This document shows positions 36,001 through 42,000 of a stretch of 60,442 nt of DNA, in pieces. The position numbers were made by a program. How positions within the stretch are numbered: position 1 is the stretch's first letter; each line of letters starts with the position of its first letter. Source of the DNA: a virus (lineage: Duplodnaviria > Heunggongvirae > Uroviricota > Caudoviricetes); the IMG/VR virus record IMGVR_UViG_2660238269_000009; one strand, written 5' to 3'.

Positions 36001-39000
36001 TCCAGAAATACGTTGTGTCCCCGCAAATCCACGGTACCGCTGATGCGCTGCCTCCTGTGCTCTGTGATGCCAGACCGGCAAGCTCCGTTCTGAACTGATT
36101 CACCATCGCACTAAACAGCCCCGGATGCTGCGCATGCGTCCCCACTGCCGCATCACCTTCTCCCTGCATCCACACCACCGCAAGCAGACGGTTTTTCGGG
36201 TTCTTCGCCAGTGCGGCTTTAGTCCGGCTCACCAAATCCTGATACAGCGGCTTACCCACACCCCAGCGCAGTGAATTTTCCGATGCACCGGCTGATTCGC
36301 TGTATGTGCCGTCTGCACCCGTTGTGAATGCCGAAGCACCACGGCAGCACGGAACCAGCAGAATGCCCGCATTCGCCGGTATAAACGGCAGCAGTTTTTT
36401 GGCGATATGCAGCCCCTGCCCCACGGTTCCGTACTGCCCCTTTGACAGGTCCGCTTTCGGATGGTTAAGACGGCTCATGTCCTGCACATCATGCAGACAA
36501 TGGTCCGCCGGAATAATGTCGTTATACTTACAGGCGGCACCGCCCGGTGTCACCGTACTGCGGCGCGCCAGCTGCTTAATACGCGGGTCCGGACGGTCAT
36601 ATGTCTCCGGCAGCGGAAGGCCTTCACCATACGACATGCCGTTTGACTGCCCTGCCAGAACCACAACAAAGTAATACTCCGGGTCGCTGGTGGCGCTGAT
36701 TACTGTGCCTTCTCCATCCGACGGCTTCACCACCACAGGTGTGGTGACATCACCTTCCGCCGCAATGGCCTGCATCAGGGTATAAGGCGTGATGGCGACA
36801 GGGCTGCCAAATGGCTGCCACCCCTCCTTCAGTTTTTGAGTCAGTCGCTCCGCAAGGTCTGACGGCGACGCCGCCCTGACCACATCGTAGTGTTTAAATG
36901 CCATGGTTCTTTCCACCATATTAAAAACAATTCTTTAAAATACCTGACATGCAATACAGAAAAAAAACACAAAACCATACCTTAAATGAAAACCTCATCA
37001 TAAAGCAGGTATGCATGGATAAACCACATCAGAAAAATAATTCTGCTCTATGGTTTACATTCAAAATTATCATTTATACTTTTCAGAACATCACCAGCAC
37101 AGCATAAATAAGGAGGCTAAATGAAGTGGATTGTGATTGATACAGTTATCCAGCCATCATGCGGAATATCTTTTTCAGCCATATGGAGTAAAATAAAATT
37201 AATAATCTGGTATCAATCGGATGTTTTCTTACCTCCTGAAAGTATATTTACGTTGACTCACACAGGTATCGTACTTAATAACAAAGTGCTACCTGTAACC
37301 ATTTACAACGTTGTACCATTCAATAAAAGATTCTGGGATTTAATCAAAAACAGCCAGGAATGTCCTGCAAATTCAGATAACGTATTGAAAGAATGCTTTA
37401 ATAATCATTGCATTCTGCAAATATGCCCTTACGGACTAAAACAACAGTGTCCATAATTAGTTTACTCATATCTTACAAAATTCATATAAAAGCCCCTCCG
37501 GAGAGGGGCTAAAGCCGCGTATCTGTATCATCATGCGCATGATGCCGGGTGCCTCCCGGTGAGTTCAGCCCGGTGCCACCAAACCCGCGCGTTTACTTTC
37601 CTGGGTATCAAAGATAACACCTAATGCACCAGTCGCCCCTCCGCTCAGGGGGATTCACCATGCCTGTTTCTTTTAACAAACTCCCCGCAAAACAGACAAC
37701 TGTCAACCGTCTGAATTGTGAGACATTTAAAATTTTCGGGGCATGACTGATACCCGGCTAACTACCTGGCATGTCCTTTTTCACCAAAGGAAAAAGCACC
37801 ACCACAATACCGACCACCAGCACTCCATCCGCCAGCACCGACATGATCCTGCTGGTGAAATCCACCATCACCACCAGAAACAGCAGGAGTGCCACAGCGG
37901 CCAGACGCAGTTTTACCGTCACAGGTGGTTCTCCAGTCGCAGGCCAAGAACACCAGCAATCTCTTCCAGAACCTTACGCTCTTCCGGCTCAATTTCACCA
38001 TCTGCTTCAGCAATGGCCACCGCCACATCCAGCACATCTTCCGCTTCACGCGTATCGTGTTTCACATCTTCAATTTCACGCAACGCCGCTCGACGACCAA
38101 TTTTAAAGTTGGTGTCAAGCTGACCTGTGATCGTGGCACTGATGGCATTAATTTCTGACGTAAACGCGGACAACGCAGGCTGGTTACGTAATACCTGTTC
38201 GATCTTCGCTTTCTCTGAAGCCTCACATTCACCATCTGCATAGGCCACCAGATAGGCAGCATTAATAACCGCCTGTGCCAGATCACGTTTCTCAAACTTT
38301 TTAATTTCCGCTGCCGCTCTGCGGGTTTTCTTTTTGAAAATACCAAACATCGTGACGTTCCTTTGGGTGGGTGAGCCAACGCCCGGGAGCGATCTGCCCA
38401 CAGAGAAAGTCACACTGACCACTCCGTAAGCTCCCCCCGAAAGGCTCTGTGGTTGATATGCGCCGGGCGTGGCGCGGAAATAAAAAAGGCTCGCAGTAGC
38501 GAGCCCCAGAAACAACAAAAATACAGTGAAAACTAAAGAGGGCCGCAGAGCAACCCTTTTTTAGTTAAAATAGATGGTAAAAAACGATTCCAGTGAATTT
38601 ATTTACACTTATTGTCAGAAAAAAGGGAAACCACCGATTCCTGACTGATCATTTCTTCTTCGCTCACCCTGGTAATTGCAACTAAATCCTGAAGAGGCAG
38701 ACCAAAAACATCCAACAATTCTTTTTTCAAAAGAATTCCATTCTCATGCAATAAGTTGATTAACTTATAGATGAATTGTGGCTCCTCTTTTGCAATCACA
38801 TCATCAAGAGGCTCACGGCGACGATATGGTGCTAATTGCCTAAAGACATAACTTTTTTGATTCTCTGTCATAAGGCTTAACGAATAAGCTCGATGCGTCA
38901 TACAGGCCAAAGAAACTAACCATCTCTCCTTCAGTCTTTTGAGTGCAGATATATTGGGAGAGTAATATTCCCTTCCAAAGGTTTGAGCTGGAAGCAAAAA

Positions 39001-42000
39001 ACAACCAGCAAAGTAATCAGCTTGTTTCTCTACCTTGTCAAAAAGCGCCTTATCGTTCAAATAATCATCTGAGACTGAGCGATGCATTATAAGATGCCCC
39101 AATTCGTGAGCTAGGCTAAACCTTAATCTAACTGCCGTCTTGGATCTATCGGTAATGATTATGGGCCTCTCATTATCCCAAAATGAAAATGCATCAACCT
39201 TATCACCAGAGAATAGATTTGCTATAACTATACCTTTATTTTCAAGCAAACGAGTCAAATTAGGTATAGGTCCATCCCCTAATTTCCAAGCTCTTCGGGT
39301 CTGCATAGCGATATCTTCAATGTCTGATTCATCCAAAACCTCAAAATCCGGAATATCAATTTCCGGTAAAATAACATCAGGAAGTTGCACATATTTACTG
39401 CATTCCCTGAGAATTAAAGGAATCCAACGTCCCTTTGCACGACCGCTGATTCTTTCTTTTTTGTCGCTGTGCTCCTGCTTCTAAAATGAACAGCCCCTTC
39501 AATAAATGGAGATCCAGAAGAAGAAATAAAAAACCGTTCCGGAAATCCTAAAATATGTGCAATTTGGGTAAGCGTCTCTGGTGAAGGTTTTTTTAACCCC
39601 TTCTCGAAAGATGATATTGCCTGTCGAGAGATATCAAGAACCCGAGCCAACTCTGCCATGGTTAATCCTTTTGCCTCTCGAGCTTCAGTGAGTCGTGTCG
39701 GATTAATACAGCGCTCATGGTTAATAAAAGATATCGCTTTCATGTTCATTATGAGTTTTGTCTAATATGTTGCTCAGTGAGGAGCTTAAACTTATTATCA
39801 AGCTCATCATCAACCTTCTCAGCCTCAACTTGGTAAGGGGACAGAATCGCAAGTTTTTCAGTATAAATGATCCCATCATTACTTGAGTTAGGGATGGTGA
39901 GGTTAAGAACAGATAAAGACTGTTTTTCTCCGGCATGCATAAGATATACATGACCACCTTCAAAATCTGTTACTTCCACACTAACATCATTAAACAAATC
40001 GTAATTGTTTGAAGAATATACAGAGCGATATTTGGCTTGTCGTGGTAATGGTCCTTTGCCATCAAGATGATGGGCTGTTAAAGACCAATTATTTGAACGG
40101 ATCGTAGGGTGCACGCAATTTTTTGCAGCATTAGAGGCAATTTCAACATGCATCTTCATGCTACGAGCTGTTTTTTCCATAAAAGCATCGACGTAAAACC
40201 AGCGAAGATATGCCTGAGCCTGACGCCAAAAAGAACCAAACTCTTTCGCACCTTGATGGGAAAGCATATATGCCTGCGCTAACGACTTTGACAATTCTTG
40301 ACGACAAGCAGAATCGAAAGCTGCCGACAATTGTTCTGAATATCTTTTGAACATTTTTTCTCAATACAGTGATTGTTGGTGTCAACTGATTTTACGTTTT
40401 TCATTAACTTTGTCAACCAGAATTGACAACCATCTTATTTTGATATGTGCCGGGTGTGGCGCGGATACAAAAAAGGCCGCCAATAGCGACCTCAGTTACG
40501 GGATTATTCTGGGGTTAAACGACTGTTACTCCCCCCAGACAAAATCATCACTTCCTGTTCGATGCGAGCCATAGTGAACCTCGTACTTATCTCCCATCTT
40601 TCTTGCTTCCGTTTCTGCGTCTTCCTCTGTCGCAAAAACCCCAACAAGATGCCAGGGCGAGCTTCTTACCACAGCCCAACCTTTAACCCATCCTTTGTTG
40701 TCCTTATCTTCCATTAACACTTCAGAAACAAACATATTTATCTCCTTGTGGGTACCCAGAGATATTTTATGATTGCTCCCGGTCAGATCAATAAAGTGGC
40801 TTCAATTTTGCCTTAATGATCAAATCAGGGTGATTGACGGAATCGTACACCACCTCAATATTTTCATCCGTGGCGTCGATAAGATATTCTTTTACATAAG
40901 GACCTGTTGATTTTCCATGAAATACATCTTCAACAAGTACACTCTCCCCCTGAACAACACGAAAACTAACTTCTGTTTCGAACGGACCAATCGTCACCAT
41001 CAGTTTTTTCACATAGCCTCCTGATAAGCACTCGATTTATTAGTTAATGGTGTAACGCTGATACAAAAAAGGCCCGCAAAAGCGAGCCTGGTAAATAAAT
41101 ATGGCGCGTTGTACTGGATTCGAACCAGTGACCGATTGCTTAGAAGGCAATTGCTCTGTCCGGCTGAGCTAACAACGCTGAATACCGATAATGGACCGCC
41201 ATCGAGGACTCGAACCCCGCGCAACCAGCTTCGAAGGCTGACGCTCTATCCCGATGAGCTAATGGCGGTATGTGATATGGTGGCCCTTGCTGGATTTGAA
41301 CCAGCGACCTGGCGATTATGAGTCGCTCGCTCTCACCACTGAGCTAAAGGGCCGGGTGCAGGATAATAACGGTACGTAACTAATCCTGCAATATCATCCG
41401 TTCTGACTGGCTAAATCCTGAACTTCCCTGACCGTCTGCTCAAAACGTTCAGTCTCCAGCTCAACGCCAGTTGCACGACGCCCCAGCGCCATCGCGGCTT
41501 TGACTGTCGAACCCGACCCCATGAAAAAATCTGCAACCAGGTCCCCCGGACGACTGCTCGCGCTGATTATCTGCTGCAGCATTTCTGCCGGTTTTTCGCA
41601 CGGATGTTTCCCGGGATAGTACTGCACCGGTTTATGCGTCCACACATCGGTGTACGGCACCTGCGCCGTCACGCCAAAATACCGCCGCAGATGCTTATAT
41701 TCACTCTGCAGTTCCGCATACTGCCGGTTCAGTGAAGTATACGTCTCCAGCAGCTGGTGGTGGGGCTTCTCCAGTTCACCCCGCTGATGCTTCTCTTCTG
41801 CCACCCGGGCAAACAGCGCCTGTAATTTCAGATAATCACTTTCGTTCGGCAGTTGCCACTGACTGGCACTGAACCAGTGCGACACCATGTTTTTCTTTCC
41901 TGTGGCATCCACAATCTGTTTTGCCGTTATCCCCAGGGCAGCGCGTGCATCACGAAAGTAAGCAATCAGCGGGGCCATCACATGCTGTTTCAGTGCCCTG

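What the first reader, a model, noticed from the sequence alone, without database searches (positions are those of the whole stretch)
38445..41088. Three copies of one conserved ~50-bp terminator-containing element delimit successive cargo cassettes
Near-identical elements (gatatgYgccgggYgtggcgcgga-A6-hairpin) occur after the ImmA operon (38445-38494), after the 69-aa gene (40442-40491) and after the tRNA cluster (partial copy, 41050-41088). Each gives a minus-strand hairpin followed by a U-run. Repeated identical terminators between morons would provide homology for cassette exchange and suggest the cargo was assembled by modular recombination.
Basis: seen in the sequence. Interest (0 to 1): 0.45.

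Follow-up and report, generated by a model that had tools for sequence, protein, structure and literature searches.

The report
Terminator-leader junction where prophage cargo stacks
The repeated 50-bp "element" is the joint between a transcription terminator and the start of a conserved RNA leader in a lambda-like E. coli prophage, and it appears three times because two extra gene cassettes, one an anti-phage defence system, were added at that joint.

Summary
The repeats are real. They are composite, not one element. Each has (i) a Rho-independent terminator, whose hairpin differs between copies, and (ii) the first 26 nt ("box") of a conserved ~128-nt leader that precedes the late gene terB/tciA.

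In 165 of 172 related phage loci the leader starts directly after a terminator. Upstream of that joint the cargo is hypervariable (35 neighbour classes in 185 loci).

The commonest arrangement is tRNA–terminator–leader (at least 760 of 5426 complete E. coli genomes). The window adds two nested modules to it:
- a 596-bp two-ORF module (108 genomes);
- a 1987-bp, low-GC RosmerTA defence cassette with its own promoter and terminators (2 complete genomes).

Each module is bracketed by a short direct repeat of the joint, about 19 nt and 38 nt. Only the Rosmer cassette duplicates the box. "Copy 3" shares only the terminator, the U-run and 6 nt of the box.

The same Rosmer cassette sits behind different cargo in another prophage, and the switch point lies in the repeat.

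So the idea of modular moron stacking and exchange is largely supported. This is a new example of a known kind.

A by-product: the box belongs to a leader RNA absent from Rfam, with covariation-supported helices that hide the ribosome-binding site.

The parts
38351..38478 (-). Conserved ~128-nt leader of terB/tciA. The covariance model built from 42 relatives matches here at 149.9 bits, and this is the only full copy in the window.
   Evidence: unannotated in 779 E. coli genomes; no Rfam match
38453..38478 (-). Box, copy 1. On the minus strand it reads TCCGCGCCACGCCCGGCGCATATCAA. It is the first 26 nt of the leader, forming hairpin P0 (GCGCC-N6-GGCGC) or pairing CGCCCGG with the downstream CCGGGCG (P4).
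38479..38507 (-). Terminator 1, at the end of the Rosmer cassette: hairpin GGGGCUCGCUACUGCGAGCC followed by UUUUUUAUU. The same hairpin allele sits next to the box behind other cargo in L113 and L180.
38539..38557 (-). Additional terminator-like hairpin directly after rmrA, with a weak U-run.
38599..39749 (-). rmrA, the HTH + Peptidase_M78/ImmA antitoxin of RosmerTA. In this window it is split into 111-aa and 263-aa ORFs by a T6 run at 39456 where other copies have T7. The full-length protein is 383 aa in other assemblies.
39749..40354 (-). rmrT, the 201-aa RosmerTA toxin-family protein.
   Evidence: PADLOC RmrT, 2.1e-17; phrog_35814
40389..40416 (-). The cassette's own sigma-70-type promoter, TTGACA-16-TAAAAT (11 of 12 matches). 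It is conserved in the 72%-identical homologue L102, where homology begins at the -35 hexamer.
40440..40465 (-). Box', copy 2: an orphan copy of the first 26 nt of the leader with two G>A changes. The rest of the leader is absent (21.6-bit partial model match). This copy travels with the Rosmer cassette.
40466..40493 (-). Terminator 2, at the end of the 74-aa/69-aa module: hairpin GAGGUCGCUAUUGGCGGCC followed by UUUUUUGUA.
40526..41012 (-). Two small phage ORFs of unknown function: 74 aa at 41012-40788 and 69 aa at 40735-40526.
41056..41089 (-). Copy 3: terminator 3 after the tRNA cluster (AGGCUCGCUUUUGCGGGCCU followed by UUUUUUGUA), plus the first 6 nt of a box (UCAGCG).
41102..41353 (-). tRNA cluster (CAU anticodon, called Met by ARAGORN and Ile in RefSeq; Arg-UCG; Arg-UCU). 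In most relatives this is the neighbour that abuts the terminator-box joint.
38479..40465 (.). 1987-bp insertion relative to the 'state B' empty site: the RosmerTA moron, 39-41% GC against 50-55% in the flanks.
40466..41061 (.). 596-bp insertion relative to the 'state A' arrangement (tRNA-terminator-box), bracketed by a ~19-nt repeat GGCCUUUUUUGUAUCNGCG.
37919..38350 (-). terB/tciA, the gene served by the leader.

Best explanation
Setting. The window is a lambdoid, Stx-phage-like prophage of E. coli with its late region on the minus strand. The order is Q, MazF-like gene, DNA methylase, three tRNAs, cargo, terB/tciA, DUF3927, STnc100, sialate esterase, then lysis genes.

What the repeat is. 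The repeated '50-bp element' is a joint between two different things. The first is the Rho-independent terminator that closes whatever unit lies upstream. The second is the first 26 nt of a conserved ~128-nt structured leader that precedes the next late gene.

Where cargo is added. New cargo is added at this joint as modules that bring or acquire a terminator. Each addition therefore leaves a short direct repeat of the joint on both sides.

The two additions here. The window carries two nested additions relative to the common ancestral-type arrangement. One is a 596-bp two-ORF module. The other is a 1987-bp RosmerTA toxin-antitoxin defence moron with its own promoter.

What the parts do (inferred). 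The terminators insulate these units in the lysogen and are read through by Q-modified RNA polymerase during lytic growth; this follows from established lambda biology and was not tested here. The short conserved joint (U-run plus start of the box, about 20-40 nt) is the place where crossovers between related phages swap and stack cargo; this is inferred from breakpoints. The box is conserved because it is part of the leader RNA, not because it terminates transcription.
For: Empty sites:
- The full 3.1-kb region occurs in 2 of 5426 complete genomes. Many relatives have the same region minus exactly 1987 bp.
- The empty site reads box(C,C) followed by terminator 2.
- State A (tRNA-terminator 3-box contiguous) is in at least 760 genomes and state B in 108.

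The joint is conserved and the upstream cargo is not:
- 96 IMG/VR loci found with the box pattern have 16 different neighbours on the cargo side.
- With a leader-based scan that does not use the box there are 35 upstream classes in 185 loci.
- 165 of 172 loci have a canonical terminator directly 5' of the box.

The box is part of the leader:
- All 179 leader loci carry the box.
- The covariance model gives one full hit in the window and only a partial hit at box'.

Repeat-bracketed modules:
- Rosmer cassette: 38-nt repeat at 89% identity.
- 188-aa gene in L092: a 26-nt direct repeat (92% identical) of terminator 3.
- ParE-like/HTH module in L205: ~33-nt repeat.
- 74/69-aa module: ~19 nt.

Same cassette, different upstream neighbour:
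- In L205, Rosmer together with box' follows a terminator-3-type hairpin and a ParE/HTH module instead of terminator 2 and the 69-aa gene. Identity begins in the U-run and box 5' end.

Moron hallmarks:
- Consensus promoter, conserved in a 72%-identical homologue whose homology covers only promoter to rmrA stop.
- Its own terminators and low GC.

Identity of the cargo:
- PADLOC RmrT 2.1e-17 and RmrA 1.5e-95; Pfam HTH_3 plus Peptidase_M78.
Against: - No experiment shows termination, read-through or recombination at these sites.
- Only the Rosmer cassette duplicates the box, so its particular 38-nt repeat could come from a single unusual event.
- The crossover placement rests on four polymorphic sites.
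- The original donor arrangement of the Rosmer cassette was not found. The 72% homologue has no box, so how box' first came to lie upstream of the Rosmer promoter is unexplained.
- Similarity among terminator hairpins may be partly convergent.
Confidence: 0.75

Rival explanations
1. The box is a site-specific recombination site (attC- or att-like), and the cassettes are inserted as circles by a dedicated recombinase, as in an integron.
For: The Rosmer cassette is bracketed by two copies of the box. The polymorphism pattern fits a single reciprocal crossover within TCCGCGCCAC. The box contains an inverted repeat, GCGCC-N6-GGCGC. An IS110-family element (ISEc20) is inserted in the leader about 20 nt downstream of the box in the PPompW phages.
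Against: The repeat length and end point differ between cassettes: about 19, 26, ~33 and 38 nt. Only one of about 35 cargo classes has two boxes. No recombinase gene other than rusA lies between Q and the lysis genes. The box is always contiguous with, and co-varies with, the downstream leader.
Confidence: 0.07
2. The box is a promoter or operator for terB, and the repeat reflects duplication of a regulatory site. The cassette copy would then drive or regulate the Rosmer operon.
For: The box sits immediately after a terminator, where a new transcription unit would start. Its palindrome would suit a dimeric DNA-binding protein.
Against: The scan found no sigma-70-like hexamers in or across the box on either strand, and the region is very GC-rich. 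The Rosmer cassette has its own strong promoter 25 nt further on, which is conserved in a homologue that lacks the box. Box' carries two changes at positions that are otherwise nearly invariant. Substitutions across the leader keep RNA pairs, including G-U pairs that are only valid on the sense strand.
Confidence: 0.1
3. The three-fold similarity is a by-product of terminator constraints (an A/T run plus a GC hairpin) and says nothing about history.
For: The hairpin sequences differ. Copy 3 matches at only 66% over 50 nt. Intrinsic terminators resemble each other in general.
Against: 24 of 26 identical non-terminator bases are shared by copies 1 and 2, with 0 expected. Copies 2 and 3 share an exact 15-mer. 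Relatives contain the precise intermediate arrangements in which terminator 3 abuts the box.
Confidence: 0.03
4. The element is a small non-autonomous mobile repeat (REP/MITE-like) scattered through the genome.
For: It is short, contains a palindrome, and occurs in up to 6 copies per genome.
Against: Every copy examined lies at the same position in a lambdoid late region, in one orientation, with one leader per prophage. There are no terminal inverted repeats or fixed target duplications.
Confidence: 0.02

Closest known systems
Morons of lambdoid phages (Hendrix/Juhala concept; reviewed in PMC3594210)
   Same: These are discrete additions absent from close relatives. [quoted passage not shown] All of this holds for the Rosmer cassette.
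   Different: Here several modules are stacked at one joint, and each is bracketed by a short direct repeat of terminator plus leader start. The two-ORF module has only a weak promoter-like match of its own (9 of 12, 40791-40764).
PeSL regulatory cassettes of T4-type phages (Arbiol et al. 2010, PMC2839356)
   Same: Short repeated regulatory motifs containing a terminator stem-loop flank the insertions, deletions and replacements that distinguish close relatives. They are proposed to serve as recombination substrates for modular shuffling.
   Different: A PeSL is an early promoter plus a stem-loop repeated many times per genome. Here the conserved non-terminator part is the start of an mRNA leader, not a promoter. 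It normally occurs once per late region, and mini-circles were not tested.
RosmerTA (RmrT/RmrA) anti-phage toxin-antitoxin systems (described in PMC10440598 and the references it cites)
   Same: A toxin gene is followed by an overlapping gene for an HTH + ImmA/M78-peptidase antitoxin, with strong PADLOC profile matches. Phage and prophage carriage is known.
   Different: Activity was not tested. In this window the antitoxin reading frame is broken by a homopolymer-length change.
Linker or boundary sequences in the modular theory of lambdoid phage evolution, and relaxed short-homology recombination by phage Rad52-like recombinases (recalled from the literature, not re-read here)
   Same: A short conserved sequence between exchangeable modules coincides with the mosaic breakpoints.
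   Different: Here the conserved patch has an evident function of its own (terminator plus leader RNA), so it need not be maintained for recombination.

Membership tests
Moron | Present in one phage and precisely absent at the same site in close relatives | tested here: met
   The 1987-bp cassette is missing from many related prophages, which have an exact empty site. The 596-bp module is absent from at least 760 genomes with the state A joint.
Moron | Own promoter | tested here: met
   TTGACA-16-TAAAAT at 40416-40389, conserved in the 72%-identical homologue L102. This is an in-silico result only. The 74/69-aa module has only a 9-of-12 match.
Moron | Own terminator | tested here: met
   Hairpin plus U-run at 38507-38486 and 38557-38539 for Rosmer, and at 40493-40473 for the 74/69 module.
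Moron | Base composition differs from the surrounding phage genes | tested here: met
   39-41% GC across 38600-40400, against 50-55% in the terB and methylase flanks.
Moron | Expressed from the repressed prophage | not testable with these tools
   Needs RNA-seq or reporter data.
RosmerTA defence system | RmrA: an HTH domain fused to an ImmA/IrrE (M78) metallopeptidase | tested here: met
   PADLOC RmrA 1.5e-95; Pfam HTH_3 9.9e-10 and Peptidase_M78 1.3e-17, scored on the intact N51 copy.
RosmerTA defence system | An adjacent RmrT toxin gene in the same operon | tested here: met
   PADLOC RmrT 2.1e-17. The rmrT stop overlaps the rmrA start.
RosmerTA defence system | Intact genes and anti-phage activity | tested here: inconclusive
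   rmrA is split in the window (T6 against T7 at 39456). The same split is seen in L205, while most assemblies have the intact 381-383-aa protein. It could be a sequencing error. Activity cannot be tested here.
Rho-independent terminator | GC-rich hairpin immediately followed by a U-run on the transcribed strand | tested here: met
   All three sites. 165 of 172 related loci have one directly before the box.
Rho-independent terminator | Terminates transcription in vivo and is overridden by Q | not testable with these tools
   Needs term-seq with and without induction.
PeSL-type regulatory cassette | The repeat unit combines a strong sigma-70 promoter with a terminator stem-loop | tested here: not met
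   No promoter-like hexamers in the box on either strand. The Rosmer promoter lies outside the repeated part.
PeSL-type regulatory cassette | Repeats flank the indels that distinguish close relatives | tested here: met
Integron-like or site-specific cassette system | A dedicated recombinase next to the array and a fixed crossover point in a conserved core | tested here: not met
   No recombinase between Q and the lysis genes apart from rusA. Repeat lengths and end points differ between modules.
Any Rfam family (for the leader) | A covariance-model match at or near the gathering score | tested here: not met
   There is no hit over 38351-38478 at the gathering threshold. At E up to 10, every match is far below its gathering score and lies mainly over the terminator region; two plus-strand chance matches (ceN80, BASRCI337) overlap the box.

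The most novel reading that the evidence does not exclude
The 26-nt box is the 5' end of an undescribed, widespread, structured leader RNA of about 130 nt. It occurs in at least 779 of 5426 complete E. coli genomes, up to 6 copies each, and also in Klebsiella phages. Its long hairpin (P2x/P2/P3) buries the Shine-Dalgarno sequence. A second set of conserved pairings crosses that hairpin: the 5' tail with the apical loop (P1), and the box with an internal loop (P4). That would make it a pseudoknot or a two-state translational switch. The leader acts as a portable expression module placed directly after a terminator, in front of unrelated genes (TerB, a solute-binding-like protein, a Rha-family protein). 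Its junction with the terminator would be the preferred crossover site at which lambdoid phages stack terminator-capped cargo, including defence systems.
Probability: 0.4. Interest if true: 0.6.

Novelty: new member of a known kind. Interest (0 to 1): 0.4.

Why it matters
The work pins down, to the base, a cargo-insertion hot spot in the late region of Stx-like lambdoid prophages, the region that carries stx in related phages. Toxin-antitoxin and defence modules and regulators are stacked there as terminator-capped units. This gives a concrete substrate for studying how prophages swap defence and virulence cargo. It also gives a simple sequence landmark (terminator plus box) for finding such cargo in draft assemblies. 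In addition, it flags an unannotated, conserved, structured leader RNA that could be tested directly as a translational control element of late-region genes.

Tried and rejected
- Rfam. The gathering search of the window and the permissive search of 38250-38600 gave nothing meaningful for the box or leader, only weak chance matches over the terminators.
- Promoter hypothesis. The consensus scan found no sigma-70-like site in the box.
- Donor search for the Rosmer cassette. E. coli complete genomes hold only the same locus. The genome contigs protein scan found no relative. IMG/VR gave one 72% homologue that has no box. The origin of box' therefore stays unresolved.
- Wasted scans. Two collection scans used a leader pattern that was one N too long and returned only chance hits.
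- Consensus fold. RNAalifold on A1 returned a different, weakly covarying fold. The MFE also changes when a few 3' nucleotides are added. The exact fold of the leader is therefore not settled.
- Hairpin P0. It shows no double compensatory change, so its existence as an RNA hairpin is unproven.
- Literature. A full-text search for the sequence strings found nothing. The Pas/STnc100 prophage sRNA preprint describes neighbouring RNAs, not this leader.
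Full report
**Observation**

The repeat finder returns one family of three 50-nt direct repeats: 38453-38502, 40440-40489 (84%) and 41036-41085 (66%).
- Copies 2 and 3 share the exact 15-mer GATACAAAAAAGGCC.
- On the minus strand each site has a GC-rich hairpin followed by a U-run: 38507-38486, 40493-40473 and 41089-41070. All three fold better than shuffled controls.

Two limits apply. Only the 26-nt "box" is near-identical (24/26) while the three hairpins are different sequences. The third copy has only the terminator, the U-run and 6 nt of the box.

**Context**

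The window is a lambdoid, Stx-phage-like prophage with its late region on the minus strand. The gene order is as follows:
- rusA, Q, a PemK/MazF-like gene and a DNA methyltransferase;
- three tRNAs (41353-41102);
- two small ORFs (74 and 69 aa);
- a 201-aa ORF and an HTH-ImmA gene;
- terB/tciA, DUF3927, the sRNA STnc100, an oppositely oriented iraM/PmrD-like gene, the SASA sialate esterase, and then the lysis genes.

**What lies between copies 1 and 2**

The 201-aa protein matches PADLOC RmrT (2.1e-17). The HTH + Peptidase_M78 protein matches RmrA (1.5e-95). This pair is a RosmerTA toxin-antitoxin defence system, a family described in PMC10440598.

The segment has the hallmarks of a moron:
- 39-41% GC, against 50-55% in the flanks.
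- A near-consensus promoter, TTGACA-16-TAAAAT, at 40416-40389.
- Two terminators at its 3' end.

A 72%-identical homologue in an unrelated IMG/VR phage (L102) also sits between a Q-like gene and the lysis genes. Homology there runs only from the -35 hexamer to the rmrA stop. The promoter is conserved, and there is no box.

**Empty sites**

Megablast of 38300-41400 against 5426 complete E. coli genomes finds the whole region in 2 genomes. Many other prophages have the region minus exactly 1987 bp.

In such a locus (L001) the sequence reads ...leader-box(C,C)-UAC-A6-terminator 2-69-aa gene. That is the left half of copy 1 joined to the right half of copy 2. The Rosmer cassette (38479-40465) is therefore a discrete insertion bracketed by the repeat.

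A junction probe for tRNA-terminator 3-box-leader, which lacks the two small ORFs, is contiguous in at least 760 genomes. The 69-aa-terminator 2-box junction is present in 108. The window is thus doubly derived. State A (tRNA-term3|leader) gained a 596-bp module to give state B, and state B gained the 1987-bp Rosmer cassette to give state C.

**What the box is**

A scan of IMG/VR with the box pattern returned 96 loci.
- On one side, the box always continues into the same ~100 nt that end at the terB start codon, or at the start codon of another gene.
- On the other side it abuts a terminator. The terminator allele and the cargo behind it fall into 16 classes.

A second scan used a motif from the middle of the leader and so did not depend on the box. 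All 179 resulting leader loci (66 distinct sequences) carry the box.
- 165 of 172 loci have a canonical hairpin plus U-run immediately 5' of the box.
- Upstream neighbours fall into 35 classes among 185 loci. The tRNA cluster is the commonest, with 86 loci.
- Only the Rosmer-bearing loci contain two boxes.
- A covariance model of the leader finds one full copy in the window (38348-38477, 149.9 bits) and only a 21.6-bit fragment at box'.

**The leader**

It is unannotated in 779 of 5426 genomes (2055 places, up to 6 per genome). It has no match in Rfam that approaches any family's gathering score. The sequence strings are not found in the searchable literature. It also occurs in Klebsiella and other enterobacterial phages.

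It precedes two divergent terB alleles, an NMT1-like solute-binding-type protein and a Rha-family protein.

The single-sequence MFE (-54.2 kcal/mol, z = -2.3) consists of a box hairpin (P0) plus a long hairpin in which CCUUU pairs with the AAAGG of the Shine-Dalgarno sequence (P2x, P2, P3).

On a 42-sequence alignment (A1), these helices plus a crossing helix P1 (CCACAGAG with CUCUGUGG in the apical loop) gave the following:
- 96.1% of cells paired, against 42-52% when the partners are slid.
- 9 pairs with changes on both sides (41 cells).
- No shuffle out of 500 reaching the observed pairing or covariation score.

A further pairing, P4, joins CGCCCGG in the box to a downstream CCGGGCG. It is 96.9% paired, with a C-G to U-A switch in four sequences (three Klebsiella-type phages and L153).

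One divergent lineage (L059) has replaced most of P2 and P3 yet keeps perfect complementarity, including a 16-bp helix over its own Shine-Dalgarno sequence.

Caveats:
- The covariation comes from three or four lineages.
- P0 shows no double change.
- RNAalifold prefers another fold.
- The MFE shifts with sequence context.

I conclude that this is a selected RNA structure that sequesters the ribosome-binding site, with either a pseudoknot or alternative states. The trigger is unknown.

**Anatomy of the joints**

Each module carries a short direct repeat of the joint.

| Module | Upstream joint | Downstream joint | Repeat |
|---|---|---|---|
| 74/69-aa module | ...GGGCCUUUUUUGUAUC(A/U)GCG\|UUACACC | ...GGCGGCCUUUUUUGUAUCCGCG\|CCAC | ~19 nt, keeping the first 6 nt of the box |
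| 188-aa gene (L092) | terminator 3 | copy of terminator 3 | 26 nt at 92% identity |
| ParE-like/HTH pair (L205) | terminator 3 + GUAUCCGUG | terminator 3 + GUAUCCGCG | ~33 nt |
| Rosmer cassette | U-run + box' | U-run + box | 38 nt at 89% identity |

For the Rosmer repeat there are four polymorphic sites.
- The upstream copy reads G,A,A,A.
- The downstream copy reads A,U,G,G.
- The uninterrupted state B reads G,A,G,G.

This is the pattern expected if the crossovers on both sides fell within the invariant UCCGCGCCAC. That reading is an inference from four sites.

The two G>A changes in box' fall at positions 10 and 17 of the alignment, which are otherwise nearly invariant. They would break one P4 pair and one P0 pair. 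This is consistent with box' being a relic that no longer functions as a leader.

**Exchange**

The exact RmrT protein is indexed in 1157 blocks of public assemblies. Nearly all of the places read show the window's arrangement.

One (L205) has Q - HicBA - a chimeric tRNA - terminator 3 - ParE-like/HTH module - a copy of terminator 3 - box' - Rosmer - terminator 1 - box - leader - terB. The same cassette, with the same box', therefore follows different cargo and a different terminator hairpin. Identity starts in the U-run and the 5' end of the box.

The terminator 1 hairpin allele also sits next to the box behind other cargo (L113, L180).

**Mechanism, and which steps are shown**

Shown:
- Discrete modules, their exact boundaries and repeats, and the empty sites.
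- Variability of the cargo.
- The terminator-like and promoter-like sequences.
- The identity of the Rosmer genes.
- Conservation and covariation of the leader.

Inferred:
- The terminators isolate each unit in the lysogen and are overridden by Q-modified polymerase from a PR'-like promoter. The candidates are a 9-of-12 promoter-like match at 43753-43725 and a terminator at 43670-43655; assigning them as PR' and tR' is inference.
- Crossovers use the 20-40 nt of shared joint. Phage recombinases that tolerate short or diverged homology are known from the literature (recalled, not re-read here).
- The leader controls translation of the gene behind it.

**Comparison with known systems**

The cassette meets the definition of a moron (PMC3594210).

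The closest analogue to repeats that delimit cargo is the PeSL cassettes of T4-type phages. There, repeated promoter plus stem-loop units flank indels and mediate modular shuffling (PMC2839356). The present repeat fails the promoter criterion, and its conserved part is an mRNA leader that normally occurs once.

Integron-like site-specific insertion is unlikely. There is no recombinase nearby, and the repeat lengths differ between modules.

**Verdict**

This is a well-resolved new example of moron stacking at a conserved regulatory joint in lambdoid prophages. It is not a new kind of system. The unannotated structured leader is the most novel element and deserves experimental follow-up.

Noticed in passing
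window 39450-39462 (poly-T at 39456): rmrA is broken into 111-aa and 263-aa ORFs by a T6 run that is T7 in strain N51. The full-length RmrA is 381-383 aa in most assemblies, and the same split occurs in L205. This is either a real frameshift in the antitoxin of a toxin-antitoxin system or a homopolymer sequencing error.
   Followed up: partly
window 38427-38432; leaders in L122, L180, L202 and others: The G-run in the 5' arm of leader helix P2 varies from 4 to about 12 G between loci. The window differs from N51 by one base here. This could be slipped-strand variation that alters the helix hiding the ribosome-binding site, or it could be assembly noise.
   Followed up: no
L099 2547-4005 (phage PPompW_132418; also 10 related records): An IS110-family element, ISEc20, is inserted inside the leader just after CCUUUCGGGGG. 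The terminator, the box and the first ~45 nt of the leader remain next to the tRNA cluster. The sequence on the other side of the IS is unrelated to the leader.
   Followed up: partly
L016, L046, L062, L077, L087 (IMG/VR): Five loci keep only the first ~40 nt of the leader (box plus the P1 5' arm plus CCUUUC), fused to a different downstream sequence with its own ribosome-binding site. This is a second independent break within the 5' part of the leader.
   Followed up: no
window 40380-40429: The heptamer GTTGACA occurs twice in direct and once in inverted orientation, overlapping and flanking the Rosmer promoter. The homologue L102 also has repeated GGTTGACA. These are plausible operators for the RmrA HTH domain.
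   Followed up: no
window 37121-37456 (+ strand): A 111-aa iraM/PmrD-family gene (phrog_4407) lies in the opposite orientation in a 32-38% GC island between STnc100 and the esterase gene. It is absent from the otherwise similar locus L001, so it is another moron-like insertion.
   Followed up: partly
window 43142-43621 (- strand): A PemK/MazF-family toxin gene sits between Q and the methylase gene, with no obvious antitoxin called. Other relatives carry HicAB or ParE-like modules in this Q-proximal region (L205).
   Followed up: no
window 37480-37692, 47787-47962, 55855-55906: Rfam matches at the gathering threshold: STnc100 (139 bits) downstream of DUF3927, the sok antitoxin RNA, and DicF.
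   Followed up: no
L205 2751-2828: The tRNA next to terminator 3 in this prophage looks like a chimera of two of the cluster's tRNAs (ARAGORN calls it Ile-GAU). This suggests a deletion by recombination between tRNA genes.
   Followed up: no
window 39749-40354: The exact RmrT protein is listed in 1157 blocks of public draft assemblies, yet the cassette is in only 2 of 5426 complete E. coli genomes. This suggests that one heavily sequenced lineage carries it.
   Followed up: no
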